Below, in pieces: positions 1,958 through 36,951 of a stretch of 37,655 nucleotides of DNA. The stretch lies in sequence record OQ417968.1; one strand, given 5' to 3'. Origin of the DNA: Mycobacterium phage prophiT36-2b. The first letter of the stretch is position 1, and every line of letters starts with the position of its first letter. The notes beneath the pieces are model-generated. The model saw only the letters and a program-made list of their open reading frames with translations. It did not search any database and was not told the origin of the DNA. The position numbers and the translations under genes are program-made.

Positions 1958-2275
1958 ATGTCACGTTCCGAAGACCCGACCCTTGTCAATCTGGAAACAG
2001 CCGCCAGCGCATCGGGCGAAATCACTTCCATGACAGGTGATTCCATCGAAATACAGGGGAACTTCACCCCTGGTCAGGCATTGGTGCTACGCCCCGGCGC
2101 AAGGGTGTTCGTCCTGGCCGTCGATGACGCCATCGAGATCCTTGACGGCCTCACCGCCGACGCCGCCGCCGAGGCCGCAGCTGCCGCCGCCGCTAAAGCC
2201 GCCCATGAGGTCGCTAAGGCGGTCGCTACCGCCGCAGGACAGGCGGTCGAGAAGATACAGGCTGGTCTCGAATGA
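1958..2275 (+). CDS. Hypothetical protein, Ala-rich C-terminus, 105 aa
   Basis: ORF track. RBS agcagggagg. Confidence 0.5.
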   Translation: MSRSEDPTLVNLETAASASGEITSMTGDSIEIQGNFTPGQALVLRPGARVFVLAVDDAIEILDGLTADAAAEAAAAAAAKAAHEVAKAVATAAGQAVEKIQAGLE

Positions 2276-3420
2276 AGTTTGCGATCGACACCGATCTTCT
2301 CGCCGAGACCATCGCGGCGGCAATCAGTTCCGTGCCATCGCGCCCGACCTCGCCGGTCCTGGGCGGTGTGTTGATCGAAGCACAGATTGGCGCGGTCACG
2401 ATGTCTAGTTTCAACTACGACCGCGCCACCAAGCGCACCGCGCCCGCTATGGACGTTGCCGAGCCTGACACCGTTGTTGTCTCGGGCAAGCTGCTGGGGG
2501 CGATCGGGGGCAACCTGCCCCGCAACAAAGACGCCACCGTTGACGTGAGCGGCCAAGAAATGGTTATCACGGCTGGCCGCACCGCGTTCCGGCTCCCGCT
2601 GCTGCACGCCGAGGACTACCCGAACCTGCCGATCATGAAACCCGACGAGGACACCATCGGGACGGTCGATGGTGACACGTTCGCCGAGGCCGTCCAAGTC
2701 ATCGGCGCGTTGGCCTCCACCGACGAACAGCCCGCCAATCTCACCGGCATCAACCTCACTTTCAGCTCAAACGGGTTGTGGCTGTGCGCTACTGACCGAT
2801 ACATCGTTGGTCGGCGCCGCCTGGACTGGGCGGGCAACACGCAGGCTCAGGCCCTTGTCCCGGCTGCCGATCTGCTCGCAACAATCAAGGCAGTGGCAGG
2901 CCCGGCCCCCGAAGATGTCGAAATCCTGCTGCGCAACGGATCGATGTTTGGTCTGCGCACCTCGGCGACCACCGTCATGACCAGTTGCCTCGGTGAGGAA
3001 TTCCCGCCGATGGAAAGGGTACTGACGCCCGCTGTCTATTCCGCGGTGTCCACCGTGCCCACGGCGGAGCTGGCCTACATGCTGCGGCGGGCGTCGTCCA
3101 TCGCCGACGACGGCTACGCCCAGATTGACATCGAAGTCGATGCCGGGGGCCTGTCGGTCACCACCACCAAGAGCGCGACCGGCAAGGTCAACGACAGCAT
3201 TGCCTCTGAGCACCAAGGTGATTACCGCCGCGTCGCTTTGTCGTCGCGGCGCCTGCACAGCGCGCTATCGGTGGTTGATGACCCCGAGGTGAGCTTGGGT
3301 TTCCGCGCGACCGGACATCTGGTCGGTATCCACCCTGGCGCACTGGAGCGCACAGACGACGAAGTTGACCTGCTGGCGTGCAACAACTTCGCCCTACTCA
3401 TGGGGATTTCAGGCAAGTGA
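2272..3420 (+). CDS. dnaN: DNA polymerase III beta sliding clamp homologue (DnaN-like), 382 aa
   Basis: Pattern matches to mycobacterial DnaN: PVLGGVLI, TAFRLPLLHAEDYPNLP, LTGINLTF...ATDRYIVGRRRLDW, ALVPAADLL. ATGA overlap start. Confidence 0.8.
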   Translation: MKFAIDTDLLAETIAAAISSVPSRPTSPVLGGVLIEAQIGAVTMSSFNYDRATKRTAPAMDVAEPDTVVVSGKLLGAIGGNLPRNKDATVDVSGQEMVITAGRTAFRLPLLHAEDYPNLPIMKPDEDTIGTVDGDTFAEAVQVIGALASTDEQPANLTGINLTFSSNGLWLCATDRYIVGRRRLDWAGNTQAQALVPAADLLATIKAVAGPAPEDVEILLRNGSMFGLRTSATTVMTSCLGEEFPPMERVLTPAVYSAVSTVPTAELAYMLRRASSIADDGYAQIDIEVDAGGLSVTTTKSATGKVNDSIASEHQGDYRRVALSSRRLHSALSVVDDPEVSLGFRATGHLVGIHPGALERTDDEVDLLACNNFALLMGISGK

Positions 3421-3745: not shown

Positions 3746-4486
3746 ATGACCCACAGCGCTACACGGTTCTTCTGGTCGTGGCTGATCGGCTCGGCGGCGT
3801 TCTCCATCCTTGGTGTCGTCACGCACGCGATCCTCGGTGATGCGCGCTCGGCGCTGATCGCCTCGGTGCTCGCGGTCGGCATCGTGGTGATCCAGCTGTG
3901 CGCCACGTACGGCGTGCACGCCTTGGTTCAGGAACGCATCACCGGCGCCGCGTACCGGTGGGCGCTGGCGATCGCCGTAGCGCTGGCCCTCGGTGCGTTC
4001 GTGCTCAACTTCGTGGCGCTGCGCGATCTGGTGATCACCTGGGCGGGCACCGCGCCCGTCATCGCGTGGATCGTGCCGCTAATCATCGACCTGGGTATGA
4101 CGGCGAGCACTCTGGCGATACTGGCGCTCACCGACGCGCAACGCACCGAACAACTGCACGCATCGGCGCATCCTGCCGCACAACCAGCGGCCACGGTGCA
4201 CGTCGAAGTACACAACACGGTGCGCACCGAAGCGCATGCCCTCGCGCAACCCGCGCAGGCCGGTGTGCAGTCCGATCAGGCTGCCGTGCATGCTGCGGTC
4301 GCTGCACGCCTCACCGCTGCGGGCGTGGTGCGCATCGCCCCTGAACGCATCGTGAACGTCCTTGACGCGCACGCCGAGGGGATCAGGCCGGGAACCATCG
4401 CGCGATCCCTGGGTGTCGGGTTCAGCACCGTCAAGAACATCGTCGCGGCGCTCGCGGTCGAAGGGGCCGACCCCCATGGCGCCTAA
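3746..4486 (+). CDS. Membrane protein (4 predicted TM) with C-terminal HTH domain, 246 aa
   Basis: ORF track. Hydrophobic N-half. C-terminal IARSLGVGFSTVKNIV HTH. Confidence 0.6.
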   Translation: MTHSATRFFWSWLIGSAAFSILGVVTHAILGDARSALIASVLAVGIVVIQLCATYGVHALVQERITGAAYRWALAIAVALALGAFVLNFVALRDLVITWAGTAPVIAWIVPLIIDLGMTASTLAILALTDAQRTEQLHASAHPAAQPAATVHVEVHNTVRTEAHALAQPAQAGVQSDQAAVHAAVAARLTAAGVVRIAPERIVNVLDAHAEGIRPGTIARSLGVGFSTVKNIVAALAVEGADPHGA

Positions 4487-4727
4487 CGCACCGGCACCCG
4501 TGGTGCGCCGCATGTTCGCCCTGTTCCGCGAGGGCGGCGTGCAGCCGCGCCCGGACCGTCTTGCCGTCGCGTCATACATCACATGGCGGCGCATCGGGTC
4601 CACCGATGACCTTGCCGAGGACGACATTCGGGCGATCGTCGCGACGCTGGAGTACTGGCGTTTGGCCGGCCAAATCGAGTACAGGTGCCGCCGCATCGCC
4701 GAATCAATGCAGGAGGTGCCAGCGTAG
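4476..4727 (+). CDS. Hypothetical protein (~83 aa)
   Basis: Internal ATG of track ORF 4362..4727, overlapping the upstream stop by 11 nt. Confidence 0.45.
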   Translation: MAPNAPAPVVRRMFALFREGGVQPRPDRLAVASYITWRRIGSTDDLAEDDIRAIVATLEYWRLAGQIEYRCRRIAESMQEVPA

Positions 4728-5582
4728 ATGCTCACATTCGAGAACCGCCGCAAGTGGACTCGCCTAGTCCTGCGGATGCCCAGCGCCGAGCTGTCCGCGT
4801 CGTGCAAGACGGTCCTGCTGGCGCTGGAAAGCTACGCGGACTACCGCGACGGCACCGGGGCACACCCTGGCGAGGAGAACCTCTCCAAGGCAGCCGACGT
4901 GAACGTGCGAACCGTGCGGCGTGCACTGGCCACAGGGCGCGCGCTGGGACTGATCGAACAGACATCGGCGGCAAACTCAAAGGCGGGCAAGGCAGCCGAA
5001 TATAGCCTCACCCTGCCGGGGATCGCGGACGTTACGACCGGACACCCGAGTCCTGTGGACAACTCCACGACCGGACACCTCAGTCCTGTGAACAACTCCA
5101 CGACCGGACACCACAGTCCTGTCGAAACAGTCCACGACCGGACAAATGCGACGCCACGACCGGACACTGGTGTCCTCCCACCTAAGCCCTACACCAATAA
5201 CCTAGGGGTGTTACTTAACTCGGGTACCTCACCAGCCCCGCGCATCGCCGAGGACACACACCCCGAGCCTCCTTCGCGATTCTGCGATGAGCACCCGATG
5301 GGAACTCGGGTCAACTGCGGCAAGTGCGGCAACGCGCGAACTGCGTTCGACGCCTGGCAAGCTCACCAGGCCGTCCGCGATGTCGAGATCGCCCAGTCCG
5401 ACACCCGACGCCGCCATGAGCAGCGCGTCAACTGCCCGTGGTGCCATGGCACCAACGTCCGCGACATCGGCGCTGACCTCGTGGAGAAATGCGACCACCA
5501 GGAGCCTCCACGATCCCGTAGAACCCTCTCGCTGGTCCCACCGCTGCCGAGTGGACCCGAAAACGTCAGGGCGGCGCAGTGA
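4728..5582 (+). CDS. Winged-HTH DNA-binding protein with C-terminal zinc-finger motifs (replication-initiator-like), 284 aa. Contains internal 33-bp tandem repeats
   Basis: ORF track. wHTH TVLLALESYADYRDG...LSKAADVNVRTVRRALATGRALGLIEQ. CGKC...CPWC motifs. TAGATG coupling. Confidence 0.6.
   Translation: MLTFENRRKWTRLVLRMPSAELSASCKTVLLALESYADYRDGTGAHPGEENLSKAADVNVRTVRRALATGRALGLIEQTSAANSKAGKAAEYSLTLPGIADVTTGHPSPVDNSTTGHLSPVNNSTTGHHSPVETVHDRTNATPRPDTGVLPPKPYTNNLGVLLNSGTSPAPRIAEDTHPEPPSRFCDEHPMGTRVNCGKCGNARTAFDAWQAHQAVRDVEIAQSDTRRRHEQRVNCPWCHGTNVRDIGADLVEKCDHQEPPRSRRTLSLVPPLPSGPENVRAAQ
5034..5176. repeat. Iteron-like array: five copies of ACGACCGGACA at 33-bp spacing (first three units near-perfect over 33 bp), ending in the perfect palindrome GGACACTGGTGTCC (5162-5175). 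Candidate origin/operator array inside the initiator-like gene
   Basis: Copies start at 5034, 5067, 5100, 5134, 5156. Translated as TTGHPSPVDNS-type peptide repeats. Confidence 0.55.
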
Positions 5583-5818
5583 GCCCGCAATCCGGCCCCG
5601 CCGACACAGACGCCGACCCCGCCGCATTCGTACGCGGACCCGGCAGGCGTCGCCGCAGCGCACCGGGACCGGTCTACGACGCCTACGCGGTCAACGGCGC
5701 CATCAACCGCACCTGCCCGACATGCCAGGCACTGCCCATGCAGTACTGCCAAGGCCCCAACGGTGCCCTGCGCAAAAGCCCCTGCCAGAAACGACTTTCA
5801 GAGAGGCAAGACAGCTGA
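5579..5818 (+). CDS. Small Cys-rich protein (CPTC...C...C), 79 aa
   Basis: ORF track. GTGA overlap with upstream stop. Confidence 0.45.
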   Translation: MSPQSGPADTDADPAAFVRGPGRRRRSAPGPVYDAYAVNGAINRTCPTCQALPMQYCQGPNGALRKSPCQKRLSERQDS

Positions 5819-6693
5819 TGACGACCGAGTGCCGCAACAAAGCCTGCAAGCGCGCATCGCAGCTGTTCCTGTGCGACGACTGCACCACGGTCCTGCGCAA
5901 CATGCTCGACCAGGTGCCCGCTCTGCTGGCCGAACTCGATGCCCGCATCCAGAAGCTCGACCGCGTACCGCACGGCACCATCGGGCGCCGCCGTGGACCG
6001 TCAGATCTGAACGTTATGGACTTCGATGCCGTCGAGACCGCCCGTGAAACCCGAAAGATGCTGCGCCGCTGGGTCGCAACCGTCGCCGAGCAGCACAACG
6101 GGCGGCGCCCGCCTGGCCTAGACACCGTGGAAACCCGCATGTTCGCCCGCTGGCTACAGGTCAACGCCGATGCCATCGCACGACTCGAAATCGCCGGAAA
6201 GATCTACGACGACATCAAGAAGTTGGTGGGCTCCGATCAACGAGGTGGCCAGCTCGTGCGGGCCATCGACCGACGCGAACGGCACTTCGCCGGGGCATGC
6301 CCGACCATCACGGGATGGGACGCGCACGGTCGCGTCATCGAGTGCGGAGAAATCCTCTACGACGAATACGGCGACAGGACAATCGATTGCCCAACCTGCG
6401 GGCAGGAAATCGACGTAAAACGCAACCAGGTTAAGGCCCTCGCCACCCGCGACCTCATGCCGTCAGACGCATTGCTCGAAGCCCTTGAAAACGCGGGGGA
6501 CACGATCGAGGCCGAACAGATCGAACGCTGGATCGCCATCAAACGGCTACGCCCACGTGGCTACATGCACCAAGGGAAATTCGTCAAAACCCGTGTGCAA
6601 GAGGCTGATAGCGCTCTATACAGCTTCGAGAATGCACGCAGACTGCTACGAAAAGACAACCGGCACAGCATGAAACAGAAAGTGAACCGATGA
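5818..6693 (+). CDS. Hypothetical protein with several CxxC zinc-ribbon motifs (~291 aa)
   Basis: In-frame ATG of track ORF 5287..6693 that overlaps the upstream stop (TGATG). The longer N-terminal extension overlaps gene 4728..5582 and is Arg/Pro-rich, typical of a wrong frame. Confidence 0.55.
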   Translation: MTTECRNKACKRASQLFLCDDCTTVLRNMLDQVPALLAELDARIQKLDRVPHGTIGRRRGPSDLNVMDFDAVETARETRKMLRRWVATVAEQHNGRRPPGLDTVETRMFARWLQVNADAIARLEIAGKIYDDIKKLVGSDQRGGQLVRAIDRRERHFAGACPTITGWDAHGRVIECGEILYDEYGDRTIDCPTCGQEIDVKRNQVKALATRDLMPSDALLEALENAGDTIEAEQIERWIAIKRLRPRGYMHQGKFVKTRVQEADSALYSFENARRLLRKDNRHSMKQKVNR

Positions 6694-35729: not shown

Positions 35730-35802
35730 GCCGCCTTAGCTCAGTCGGTAGAGCAGCTCACTCGTAATGAGCAGGTCAGCGGTTCGATTCCGCTAGGCGG
35801 CT
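35730..35802 (+). tRNA. tRNA-Thr (anticodon CGU), 73 nt, no encoded CCA
   Basis: Manual fold: acceptor GCCGCCT/AGGCGGC, D-arm GCTC AGTCGGTAG AGCA, anticodon stem GCTCA/TGAGC with loop CTCGTAA, T-arm AGCGG TTCGATT CCGCT. Confidence 0.85.
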
Positions 35803-35807
35803 CTCCT

Positions 35808-36700
35808 TTATGCCGCGTCGCCGTCCGTCAATATGAGGGACGGTATCGGCGCCCCTCCGATGGGTAGCTGTAGCCGCTCGATGCCTTCTGCTCGGCGTTC
35901 GTTCTTCACCTGGGTGTAGATCTGGGTTGACTGGATGCTCGCGTGGCGGGCGAGTTCCTGGGTGGTTCGCAGGTCTACGCCAGCCTCCAGTAGCGCGGTG
36001 CAATACCAATGACGCAACCGGTGACCGGCGCCCTGTACGCCTGCACGGGTGAATACCTGTCCAAGCGTGTGGCTGACCGACTCGCGGCGAACATGCCCGC
36101 CACTCTTGCTTGGAAACCAGTGCCCCTTGCGAGGCATTTGGTACGCGATTTCGACAACCAGCGGGTGAAGGGGAAGCACCTTCGTGACGTTGCCCTTGCC
36201 GTGCACGATCATCGTGCGGGCGATCAGGTCGAAGTGCTCGCCCTTGACCTTGGCGATTTCGTGCACTCGGAGTCCTTGCAGTGTGGCTAGCAGCGCCATA
36301 GCGCGTGTTCGTTTCCACATCCGAACGCGCAGGATGCGTCCCAGCTCCTCATCGGTCACTGGTCGCGGCTCGCTCTTGGGACGCCGGGGCGATGGAATGT
36401 GGAGCATCGGATTGTCTATGCGATGCCCCTGCGTTTGCAGCCACGAGAACCACGCACGCAATGTGCTGTGATACGTCCAGCGGGTTCGCGCTGACCAGCC
36501 TTCGTCACTGTCGGCCCCTTCGGCGAGCCACCGAACGATGTGTTCCAGTGTTGCGAGTTCCGGAGCCACGCCGCACCACTCGGCCATCCGCCTCACGGTC
36601 CACGCGCGCTCGGTGACTGTGCGAACAGACAGCGATTGCGCGTATTGCCATGTTGCCCAAAGGTGCAAGAGTGATGTGTGGTGTGAGTGAAGGTTCAGCA
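35808..36700 (-). CDS. int: Tyrosine integrase (site-specific recombinase), ~297 aa from Met at 36700 (alternative upstream start at 36821). C-terminus ...LTDGDAA
   Basis: Catalytic motifs HRLRHWY and IYTQV (Tyr). N-terminal core-binding/SAM-like domain. Abuts the tRNA 3' end. Confidence 0.85.
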
Positions 36701-36951
36701 TTCCGCCCCCTGATGATGAGTTGATGGTTTTCGGCTCCCTGGATTCCCCCCGGTCTCCATGCCGCTCGGCAGAGCACGAAACTATGGCGAGATGGGCTCG
36801 GCCACAAGCCTTTTCGGTCACTGTTTGAGCACCTTCCTGTAACTATTGGCACGGGCGTCCCATCGTGGCTTTGGCTCGGCTACCAGCAGATTTGGGTTTG
36901 GCATGCAGAAATGTTCCACGTGGCAATAACGTGATTTGACTGTTGCGAAAT

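What the first reader, a model, noticed from the sequence alone, without database searches (positions are those of the whole stretch)
5034..5176. Iteron-like 33-bp tandem repeats and a terminal perfect palindrome inside the initiator-like gene
There are five copies of ACGACCGGACA at 33-bp phasing, three with near-identical 33-bp units. The array ends in the 14-bp perfect palindrome GGACACTGGTGTCC, so the direct repeats carry the half-site GGACAC. They are embedded in the ORF of a winged-helix plus zinc-finger protein, a classical arrangement for a phage or plasmid origin with initiator-binding iterons located within the initiator gene.
Basis: seen in the sequence. Interest (0 to 1): 0.6.

Follow-up and report, generated by a model that had tools for sequence, protein, structure and literature searches.

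The report
Replication origin inside prophage initiator gene
A mycobacterial prophage most likely carries its replication origin inside the gene for its own initiator protein, as phage lambda does: repeated binding sites for that protein alternate with sites matching the host DnaA protein, and this origin has not been annotated before.

Summary
The repeats are real. ACGACCGGACA occurs five times exactly at 5034-5166 and nowhere else in the 37.6-kb window. Two details need correcting. The spacing is 33, 33, 34 and 22 bp, not 33 throughout. The "perfect palindrome" is two 6-bp arms around a 2-bp non-symmetric centre.

The origin reading is well supported, by sequence comparison only.
- The motif is kept in all three reading frames and uses rare codons.
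- It lies in a predicted disordered linker between a winged-helix domain and a zinc domain.
- Every homologue (42-93% identity, 55 proteins, over 30 DNA loci) has the same layout, with 3-7 copies.
- At least four repeat types track the predicted recognition helix (50 of 50 proteins). This includes a second lineage with a different protein scaffold.
- The 50 bp after the last repeat are among the easiest to melt in the window, and their synonymous sites are the most conserved in the gene.

New here: each 33-bp unit is a 20-bp initiator site followed by a host DnaA-box match (TTGTCCACA at 5054-5062). The 22-bp units lack it.

Relatives are cluster MabB prophages of M. abscessus, where this gene is annotated only as "HTH DNA-binding protein". 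I judge it a new member of a known kind, untested experimentally.

The parts
4728..5582 (+). Gene for the putative replication initiator (284 aa). Layout: winged helix, disordered linker, zinc domain.
   Evidence: ORF. PHROG 26991 plus weak matches to eight 'replication initiation protein' PHROGs. Pfam HTH_36 at 22 bits, below the 25-bit cutoff. AlphaFold2 model. Homologues are annotated only as 'HTH DNA binding domain protein'.
4728..5024 (+). N-terminal winged-helix DNA-binding domain (aa 1-99).
   Evidence: pLDDT 80-95. Helices at aa 4-16, 24-36, 49-56 and 60-72; wing strands at 76-80 and 91-94. Foldseek finds winged-helix proteins, including N-domains of the staphylococcal RepA_N initiators.
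4905..4943 (+). Predicted recognition helix (aa 60-72, VRTVRRALATGRA; the covarying residues begin at V58).
   Evidence: Helix 60-72. The helix type V[DN]VRTVRRA goes with GGAC-type repeats in 20 of 20 proteins. Other helix types go with GGAAC- or GGCA-type repeats in 30 of 30. An independent second lineage shows the same link.
5025..5252 (+). Coding sequence for the disordered linker (aa 100-175). It carries all the DNA elements listed below.
   Evidence: pLDDT below 50 for aa 100-150 and 153-175.
5034..5053 (+). Iteron 1: ACGACC + GGACACCCGAGTCC (imperfect inverted repeat).
5054..5062 (-). DnaA-box match TTGTCCACA. It is identical to the mycobacterial high-affinity DnaA box.
   Evidence: one of only two TTRTNCACA matches in the window. 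The consensus is taken from PMC4285127, Table 1. Same offset and orientation in relatives.
5067..5086 (+). Iteron 2: ACGACC + GGACACCTCAGTCC.
5087..5095 (-). DnaA-box-like TTGTTCACA (fits TTRTNCACA).
5100..5119 (+). Iteron 3: ACGACC + GGACACCACAGTCC. It is followed by TGTCGAAACAGTCC, which has no DnaA-box match.
5134..5155 (+). Short 22-bp unit 4: ACGACCGGACA plus an unrelated right part. Only the left half-site is present, and it is read in frame +1.
   Evidence: An equivalent half-site unit is present in most relatives examined; L027 and L030 have a 33/23-bp spacing without an obvious short half-site unit.
5156..5175 (+). Iteron 5: ACGACC + GGACAC-TG-GTGTCC. This is the best inverted repeat (6-bp arms) and is read in frame +2.
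5176..5250 (+). Candidate DNA-unwinding and helicase-loading segment. It is low in GC and highly conserved, and holds CACCAATAACC and GGGGTGTTACTTAACTCGGGTACCTCACCAG.
   Evidence: GC is 0.52 against 0.63 overall. The 50-mer 5182-5231 is in the least stable 0.11% of the window, z = 2.9. Synonymous-codon identity is 0.89-0.92 here against 0.3-0.65 in the folded domains. It is conserved across repeat classes.
5259..5507 (+). C-terminal zinc/helix domain (aa 178-260; Cys/His motifs at 186-200 and 236-257). Its inferred role is recruiting host replication proteins.
   Evidence: pLDDT 75-93 with a long helix at 198-234. C186, H189, C197, C200, C236, C239, C255 and H257 are invariant. The domain is shared with phage 32HC gp67 and Rem711 'replication initiation protein'.

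Best explanation
Region 5034-5250 is most likely the lytic replication origin of this MabB-like mycobacterial prophage. It is written into the disordered-linker coding part of the initiator gene 4728-5582.

Proposed mechanism:
1. Dimers of the initiator's N-terminal winged-helix domain bind the near-palindromic sites CCGGAC-N6-GTCC. There are four full sites and one half-site, spaced at multiples of about 11 bp, so they lie on one face of the helix. This step is inferred from symmetry, phasing and covariation.
2. Host DnaA binds the TTGTCCACA-type boxes that follow the sites in the 33-bp units. This step is inferred from sequence only.
3. The resulting complex opens the adjacent easily melted segment, 5176-5235. 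This is inferred.
4. The conserved C-terminal zinc domain, DnaA, or both bring in the host DnaB helicase. The phage encodes a beta clamp but no recognisable helicase, primase or loader. This is inferred.

Because the linker peptide is unstructured, the DNA sites can be kept in any reading frame, and whole 33-bp units can be gained or lost without harming the protein.
For: - Five exact copies, confined to the array.
- The copies fall in frames 0, 0, 0, 1 and 2. In every relative the last copies also change frame.
- The rare codons GGA (11% usage), AGT (5%) and CCT (7%) are fixed in each unit, exactly where they form the half-sites.
- Across 27 distinct units the half-sites are conserved and the centre is variable.
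- The array maps to a pLDDT<50 linker between two confident domains.
- All 55 homologues and 30+ loci share the layout: n units of 33 bp, then 34 or 22 bp, then 22-23 bp. Copy number is 3-7.
- There are four repeat classes (GGAC, GGAAC, GGCAT, GGCAC). They match the recognition-helix type in 50 of 50 proteins.
- P0034 and P0035 have a scaffold 65-74% identical to GGAAC-class proteins. Yet they carry the window-type helix (9 of 12 residues) and GGACAC repeats.
- Between the window and phiGD21-1 the repeat class changes. The initiator N-domain is then the most diverged of the segments compared (50%), although the 79-aa zinc protein also diverges (62%). The C-domain (88%) and the 291-aa HTH protein (87%) stay similar.
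- The downstream 50-mer is in the least stable 0.11% of the window and shows the gene's highest synonymous conservation.
- The only two TTRTNCACA matches in the window are in the array. In about 260 kb of relatives, 74 of 76 matches are in the arrays, at one offset and in one orientation. They occur only in long units (73 of 117) and never in short or last units.
- The protein weakly matches initiator PHROGs.
- A remote relative in a 10.9-kb satellite phage has 6-7 CACGGGACA repeats in three frames at the same place.
Against: - No experiment exists: binding, unwinding and origin activity are all untested.
- Part of the helix-to-repeat covariation could be plain linkage, because the two lie only 100-270 bp apart.
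- The repeat units descend from a common ancestor, so the counts of DnaA-box matches are not independent events. Two relatives (L032, L035) lack such boxes.
- The "AT-rich" segment still has 48-53% GC.
- GC skew shows no clear switch at this site.
- The Pfam HTH_36 hit is below its cutoff, and there is no hit to any curated initiator family.
- No helicase loader or other partner was identified.
Confidence: 0.7

Rival explanations
1. The protein does bind these sites, but they act as an operator rather than an origin. Binding inside its own gene would shut down or block early transcription (autoregulation), and replication would start elsewhere.
For: Initiators and winged-helix repressors commonly autoregulate through repeated or palindromic sites. 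The covariation evidence supports binding, not origin function as such. Foldseek's top hits are transcription regulators of the MarR type.
Against: Operators normally overlap promoters, and none is predicted in 4300-6000. Four to seven phased sites are followed by a low-stability segment under synonymous constraint and are interleaved with DnaA-box matches. That is origin architecture. No other initiator or origin candidate is annotated in these prophages. The same module occurs in a satellite phage and in a small integrase-linked element, both of which need an origin.
Confidence: 0.13
2. The repeats are sites for a different protein, such as the 79-aa zinc protein or the 291-aa HTH protein downstream, the membrane-HTH protein upstream, or a host factor. 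Or they serve another cis function such as packaging or partition.
For: Several other DNA-binding proteins are encoded nearby. The 79-aa protein is also fairly diverged (62%) between the two repeat classes.
Against: The repeat class tracks the initiator's own helix in 50 of 50 proteins. The 291-aa, membrane-HTH and 83-aa proteins stay 74-87% identical while the repeats change class. Distant relatives keep the array but have different neighbours, namely DUF7341/7340 proteins in place of the 291-aa protein. The virion ends of phiGD89-1 lie about 4 kb away from this gene, so it is not the packaging site. The prophage integrates, so it needs no partition site.
Confidence: 0.07
3. It is only a peptide-repeat expansion in a flexible linker (TTGHxSPVxNS), produced by replication slippage. 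The DNA has no function of its own.
For: Units 1-3 are in frame and give an 11-residue peptide repeat. Copy number varies between strains, as slippage would produce.
Against: Copies 4 and 5 keep the DNA motif but encode different peptides (HDRT, RPDT), and this holds in all relatives. Rare codons are fixed. The sites have internal dyad symmetry with a variable centre. The repeats covary with the recognition helix. The linker is predicted to be disordered, so peptide conservation would have no obvious basis.
Confidence: 0.04
4. The array works as structured RNA, for example small hairpins in the mRNA that control translation or stability.
For: Folding of 5020-5240 as RNA gives z = -2.56 against shuffles.
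Against: The stems are just the 4-6-bp palindrome arms. There is no Rfam match in the region. The ~11-bp phasing, the covariation with a DNA-binding helix and the DnaA-box matches have no explanation at the RNA level.
Confidence: 0.02

Closest known systems
Phage lambda ori inside gene O (lambdoid O/P system)
   Same: The origin lies in the middle of the initiator gene. It has several near-palindromic sites for the initiator, followed by an easily melted tract. Site number varies between relatives (4 in lambda, 6 in Stx phages; PMC7466680). From general knowledge, the N-terminal domain and the sites change specificity together among lambdoid phages, while the C-terminal half is exchangeable. 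Here the N-domain is 50% and the C-domain 88% identical between repeat classes.
   Different: There is no sequence relationship. Pfam Phage_rep_O is not hit, and the O-like PHROG scores only E = 0.008. The C-domain binds zinc. No P-like or DnaC-like loader is encoded. DnaA-box matches are interleaved with the sites, which is not the lambda arrangement. The host is a high-GC actinobacterium, so the "AT-rich" tract is about 50% GC.
Iteron plasmids whose origins combine Rep iterons with host DnaA boxes (pSC101, P1, F, RK2, R6K; general knowledge, reviewed in PMC4980987)
   Same: An element-encoded winged-helix initiator binds phased direct repeats. Host DnaA boxes lie in the same origin next to an unwinding element.
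   Different: In those plasmids the origin lies outside the rep gene, and the DnaA boxes are usually grouped at one end rather than alternating one-to-one with the iterons. There is no hit to the Rep_3 or RepA families.
RepA_N replicons of Gram-positive plasmids (pSK41, pAD1 type) and Bacillus phage SPP1 oriL in gene 38 (general knowledge)
   Same: The origin repeats are embedded in the central part of the initiator gene, between an N-terminal winged-helix domain and a C-terminal host-specific domain. N-domain structures of RepA_N proteins (4pql, 4pt7, 5kbj) appear among the Foldseek hits.
   Different: The structural matches are weak (E of 0.02 or worse) and no better than to generic MarR-type winged-helix proteins. 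Pfam Phage_rep_org_N scores 14.3 bits against a cutoff of 23.3. The host phylum is different.
RepA-dependent origins of extrachromosomal cluster A mycobacteriophages (Wetzel et al. 2020, PMC7157519)
   Same: These are mycobacteriophage replicons in which the cis-acting origin is thought to lie within or next to the initiator gene.
   Different: Those authors found no repeated motifs. Their RepA proteins belong to a plasmid family, and those origins maintain the prophage as a plasmid. Here the prophage integrates and the repeats are explicit.

Membership tests
Lambda O-type initiator/origin (Pfam PF04492 Phage_rep_O) | Sequence membership in the O protein family | tested here: not met
   No PF04492 hit at E <= 0.1. 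The 'replication initiation O-like' family phrog_678 scores only E = 0.0079.
Lambda O-type initiator/origin | Origin located inside the initiator gene, between the N- and C-terminal domains | tested here: met
   The array at 5034-5175 encodes aa 103-150, inside the pLDDT<50 linker between the two folded domains. The position is shown; origin activity is not.
Lambda O-type initiator/origin | Several dyad-symmetric initiator sites followed by an easily melted tract | tested here: met
   Four CCGGAC-N6-GTCC sites and one half-site. The next 50 bp are in the least stable 0.11% of the window.
Lambda O-type initiator/origin | Binding of the sites by the initiator's N-terminal domain | not testable with these tools
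   Supported only indirectly, by helix-to-site covariation in 50 of 50 proteins.
Lambda O-type initiator/origin | A partner helicase loader (P-like) encoded downstream | tested here: not met
   The downstream 79-aa and 291-aa proteins match no loader family in Pfam, PHROGs, NCBIfam or PDB.
Iteron-plasmid Rep proteins (Rep_3/RepA/pi type) | Sequence membership; two tandem winged-helix domains | tested here: not met
   No Pfam or NCBIfam hit. The model shows one winged helix plus a zinc/helix domain.
Iteron-plasmid Rep proteins | Host DnaA boxes within the origin | tested here: met
   TTGTCCACA at 5054-5062 and TTGTTCACA at 5087-5095. In relatives, 74 of 76 matches lie in the arrays. This is a sequence match only; DnaA binding is untested.
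Pfam HTH_36 (PF13730) winged-helix proteins | Score above the Pfam gathering cutoff | tested here: inconclusive
   22 bits against a cutoff of 25 for the window protein. Many homologues carry a precomputed PF13730 hit.
SPP1 G38P-type replisome organiser (PF09681) | Score above the Pfam gathering cutoff | tested here: not met
   14.3 bits against a cutoff of 23.3.
Cluster MabB prophages of Mycobacterium abscessus | Nucleotide similarity and shared gene order with MabB genomes | tested here: met
   84-88% identity over 55-81% of a 3-kb query to 14 records. Eleven are prophi* prophage records, ten of which are among those Table 1 of PMC8092301 assigns to MabB; prophiT50-1 and the three isolated phages phiGD89-1, phiGD34-2 and phiGD21-1 were not checked, and P3MA is a separate isolate. 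Gene order is the same.

The most novel reading that the evidence does not exclude
This would be a composite origin in which sites for the phage initiator alternate one-to-one with host DnaA boxes, every three helical turns (33 bp). All of it is encoded within the disordered linker of the initiator. Short 22-bp units without DnaA boxes lead into the unwinding site. Specificity would be reprogrammed in nature by changing a few residues at the start of one helix together with the half-site (GGAC, GGAAC, GGCAT, GGCAC). Prophages, lytic phages of M. smegmatis and satellite phages would all use the same design.
Probability: 0.4. Interest if true: 0.65.

Novelty: new member of a known kind. Interest (0 to 1): 0.5.

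Why it matters
- Replication origins of integrating mycobacteriophages are essentially uncharted. In MabB prophages, IdentityCrisis and WST1, this gene is annotated only as an HTH DNA-binding protein, and no origin is marked.
- A defined initiator-plus-origin cassette of about 0.9 kb could give a new replicon for M. abscessus. The prophage survey paper notes that few plasmid replicons are available for this organism (PMC8092301).
- The four natural helix/half-site pairs offer a ready-made system for studying how winged-helix proteins read DNA, and for building mutually compatible replicons.
- If the DnaA-box reading holds, phage replication is tied to the host initiator. That bears on phage therapy against M. 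abscessus and on how the newly described satellite phages of M. aichiense replicate.

Tried and rejected
- The genome-contig scan with the protein alignment found no relative.
- A profile search of PDB sequences gave nothing significant.
- Foldseek against PDB gave only generic winged-helix hits, so it cannot assign a family. BFVD gave many phage "HTH domain" proteins and a few named initiators, which is supportive but not decisive.
- GC skew and cumulative skew across the window show no clear switch at the array. There is only a local negative skew in 5001-6000.
- The promoter scan of 4300-6000 found nothing, and the one terminator-like hit is at chance level.
- Rfam found only a tRNA elsewhere in the window. 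The RNA fold z of -2.6 is explained by the palindromes.
- I looked for a helicase loader among the neighbours. The 291-aa and 79-aa proteins have no informative family or structure match. The 291-aa protein is not clearly related to the DUF7341/7340 proteins that occupy the corresponding position in distant relatives.
- Literature searches found no description of this origin.
- I rejected the peptide-repeat, RNA-structure and packaging-site readings. The reasons are given under the rival explanations.

Full report
**1. The observation**

The 11-mer ACGACCGGACA occurs five times exactly on the + strand, starting at 5034, 5067, 5100, 5134 and 5156. Allowing one mismatch adds only two unrelated hits in the whole 37,655-bp window. 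The chance expectation is 1.16, and none of 100 shuffles reached 7. Tandem Repeats Finder reports a 33-bp period over 5034-5144.

Two details in the finding are wrong:
- The spacing is 33, 33, 34 and 22 bp, not 33 throughout.
- GGACACTGGTGTCC (5162-5175) is not a perfect palindrome. It is two 6-bp arms around a non-symmetric TG.

Units 1-3 each hold an imperfect inverted repeat, CCGGAC-N6-GTCCtG. Unit 4 has only the left half-site. The full motif is found nowhere else in the window.

**2. Context**

The window is a near-complete prophage. It is 84-88% identical over this region to cluster MabB prophages of Mycobacterium abscessus, with the same gene order. The array lies in ORF 4728-5582 (284 aa). 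[quoted passage not shown] The only replication gene annotated in these genomes is a beta clamp.

The AlphaFold2 model has three parts:

| Part | Residues | Confidence (pLDDT) |
|---|---|---|
| Winged-helix domain (recognition helix aa 60-72) | 1-99 | 80-95 |
| Disordered stretch | 100-175 | <50 for aa 100-150 and 153-175 |
| Cys/His-rich helical domain | 178-260 | 75-93 |

The repeats encode aa 103-150, so they fall entirely inside the disordered linker.

The protein hits PHROG 26991 (function unknown). It also weakly matches eight PHROGs annotated as replication initiation proteins, through both of its domains. The Pfam HTH_36 hit is just below its cutoff. No curated initiator family is matched.

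**3. The DNA, not the peptide, is under selection**

- Copies 1-3 are read as TTGH, copy 4 as HDRT and copy 5 as RPDT. That is three different frames.
- In every one of more than 30 related loci the last two or three copies also change frame.
- Each in-frame unit uses GGA, AGT and CCT. These codons account for 11%, 5% and 7% of their amino acids in this phage, and they sit exactly where they form GGAC...AGTCCTG.
- Across 27 distinct GGAC-type units the half-sites are nearly invariant and the centre is free. This is the pattern expected for a dimer site.

**4. Comparison with relatives**

All 55 homologues (42-93% identity; Mycobacteroides and Mycolicibacterium prophages, and the M. smegmatis phages IdentityCrisis and WST1) carry the array at the same place. 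The layout is n long units of 33 bp, then a 34- or 22-bp step, then 22-23 bp to a final full site. Total copy number is 3 to 7.

There are at least four site classes:

| Class | Site | Where seen |
|---|---|---|
| GGAC | CCGGACAC...GTCC | window |
| GGAAC | CCGGAAC-N4-GTTCC | phiGD21-1 and many others |
| GGCAT | CCGGCATGGCCGTGCC | L028 |
| GGCAC | GCGGCAC-N4-GTGCC | L029 |

The class matches the start of the recognition helix in 50 of 50 aligned proteins. V[DN]VRTVRRA goes with GGAC. xTTRAVRxA and its variants go with GGAAC or GGCA.

This is not only block inheritance. P0034 and P0035 have an N-domain scaffold closest to GGAAC-class proteins (65-74% identity outside the helix, against 49% to the window protein). 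Yet they carry the window-type helix (9 of 12 residues) and GGACAC sites.

The window and phiGD21-1 belong to different classes. Identities between them are:

| Segment | Identity |
|---|---|
| Initiator N-domain | 50% |
| Initiator C-domain | 88% |
| 291-aa HTH protein | 87% |
| 83-aa protein | 80% |
| Membrane-HTH protein | 74% |
| 79-aa zinc protein | 62% |

The sites therefore track the initiator's own DNA-binding domain.

**5. What lies next to the array**

The 60 bp after the last site have 52% GC, against 63% overall. The 50-mer 5182-5231 is in the least stable 0.11% of all 50-mers in the window (z = 2.9). It is the fourth least stable spot in the first 9 kb, and the other three are intergenic.

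Among 13 diverse genes, synonymous-codon identity is 0.3-0.65 across the folded domains. It peaks at 0.86 over the frame-shifted sites and at 0.89-0.92 over nt 5193-5240. The string GGGTACGTCACCAG is shared by six of the seven diverse loci compared; the window itself has GGGTACCTCACCAG, one base different. GGGTGTTACGTAAC is shared by several classes. I take this segment to be the candidate unwinding and loading site.

**6. DnaA-box matches (new here)**

The 9 bp after the palindrome in unit 1 (5054-5062) read TTGTCCACA on the minus strand. This is identical to the high-affinity DnaA box of M. tuberculosis and Streptomyces (PMC4285127, Table 1). Unit 2 has TTGTTCACA. These are the only two matches to TTRTNCACA in the whole window.

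In about 260 kb of related loci, 74 of 76 matches lie inside the arrays. They always come directly after the right half-site and always in the same orientation. They occur only in long units (73 of 117) and never in the short or final units. All four site classes have them.

Variation falls on the degenerate box positions (TGTG[GAT]A[CT]AA). The GGAAC-class arrays use the rare codons AAT and TAT to spell TTATTCACA and TTATACACA. This explains the two unit sizes: 33 bp is roughly an initiator site plus a DnaA box, and 22 bp is a site alone.

Caveats:
- The units share ancestry, so the counts are not independent events.
- Two relatives lack the boxes.
- DnaA binding is untested.

**7. Most likely mechanism**

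Initiator dimers load on the phased sites, and host DnaA loads on the interleaved boxes. The complex opens 5176-5235. The zinc domain, DnaA, or both recruit host DnaB. The phage supplies its own beta clamp. Only the sequence anatomy and the covariation are shown; binding, opening and recruitment are all inferred. I put confidence in origin function at about 0.7, and in the DnaA component at about 0.4-0.5.

**8. Rival readings**

- Autoregulatory operator rather than origin: 0.13.
- Site for another protein, or another cis function: 0.07.
- Pure peptide-repeat expansion: 0.04.
- Structured RNA: 0.02. The fold z of -2.6 is due to the palindromes, and there is no Rfam hit.

**9. Comparison with known systems**

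The element works like lambda ori inside gene O. Both have sites in the middle of the initiator gene followed by a meltable tract, and copy number varies (4 against 6 in lambdoid phages; PMC7466680). It also resembles iteron plasmids that combine Rep sites with DnaA boxes, and RepA_N plasmids and SPP1 gene 38, where the origin sits inside the rep gene.

It is not a sequence member of the O, Rep_3 or G38P families.

No paper in the library describes this origin. Wetzel et al. 2020 looked for repeats in other mycobacteriophage replicons and found none.

**10. Verdict**

This is a new, unannotated member of a known kind: an origin embedded in the initiator gene. The proposed twist of alternating DnaA boxes is plausible but untested. 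Interest is moderate, at 0.5.

Noticed in passing
L039 (Mycolicibacterium phage WillG, OR387121.1) 5237-5410: This 10.9-kb satellite phage of M. aichiense belongs to the EPIP class described in PMC12822802. Its HTH gene (4741-5853) is a remote relative of the initiator N-domain (28% identity). Directly after the winged helix it carries 6-7 copies of CACGGGACA(T) in all three frames, followed by AATAAACCCGGGT twice. This is a likely satellite origin, and the preprint does not mention it.
   Followed up: partly
window 5120-5133, and the equivalent units in L027, L030, L032, L034, L036: Long units that lack a DnaA-box match often carry ..T[CT]GAAAC.. instead (peptide PVET). This recurs across site classes. 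It could be a second factor's site or coincidence.
   Followed up: no
L028 3440-3480, L029 3465-3495, L034 about 3000-3030: In some distant relatives the segment after the last site has 2-3 tandem 11-bp repeats (CACCCTCCAAG), in place of the CACCAATAACC...GTTACGTAAC segment seen in the window class. This may be an alternative form of the unwinding element.
   Followed up: no
window 5205-5240: Relatives have the perfect 10-bp palindrome GTTACGTAAC here, where the window has GTTACTTAAC. Thirteen bp further on lies a related GGTACGTCAC, which is part of the universally conserved GGGTACGTCACCAG. This may be a site for another factor.
   Followed up: partly
window 35730-35803: A tRNA-Thr (CGT) gene lies 4 bp from the 3' end of the leftward integrase ORF (35808-36821). 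One MabB relative, prophiGD21-1, is also listed with one tRNA.
   Followed up: no
window 2272-3420: The phage encodes a DNA polymerase III beta clamp (382 aa). It is the only recognisable replisome part. No helicase, primase or loader was found in the early region.
   Followed up: partly
L032 (Logan ERR5412098 contig, 5.1 kb): Here the initiator homologue P0029 sits about 600 bp from a divergent integrase/210-aa gene pair and is followed by a DUF2637 protein. This is a different and apparently much smaller integrative element that uses the same initiator-plus-array module. Its array has no DnaA-box match.
   Followed up: no
L038 (Mycobacterium phage 32HC) 2522-2582: gp67 is annotated 'replication initiation protein' and shares only the C-terminal zinc domain with the window protein. 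Its linker holds the tandem repeats CGTCCGGCCGGA (2.5 copies) and ACCTAT (4.8 copies). This may be another origin inside a gene.
   Followed up: no
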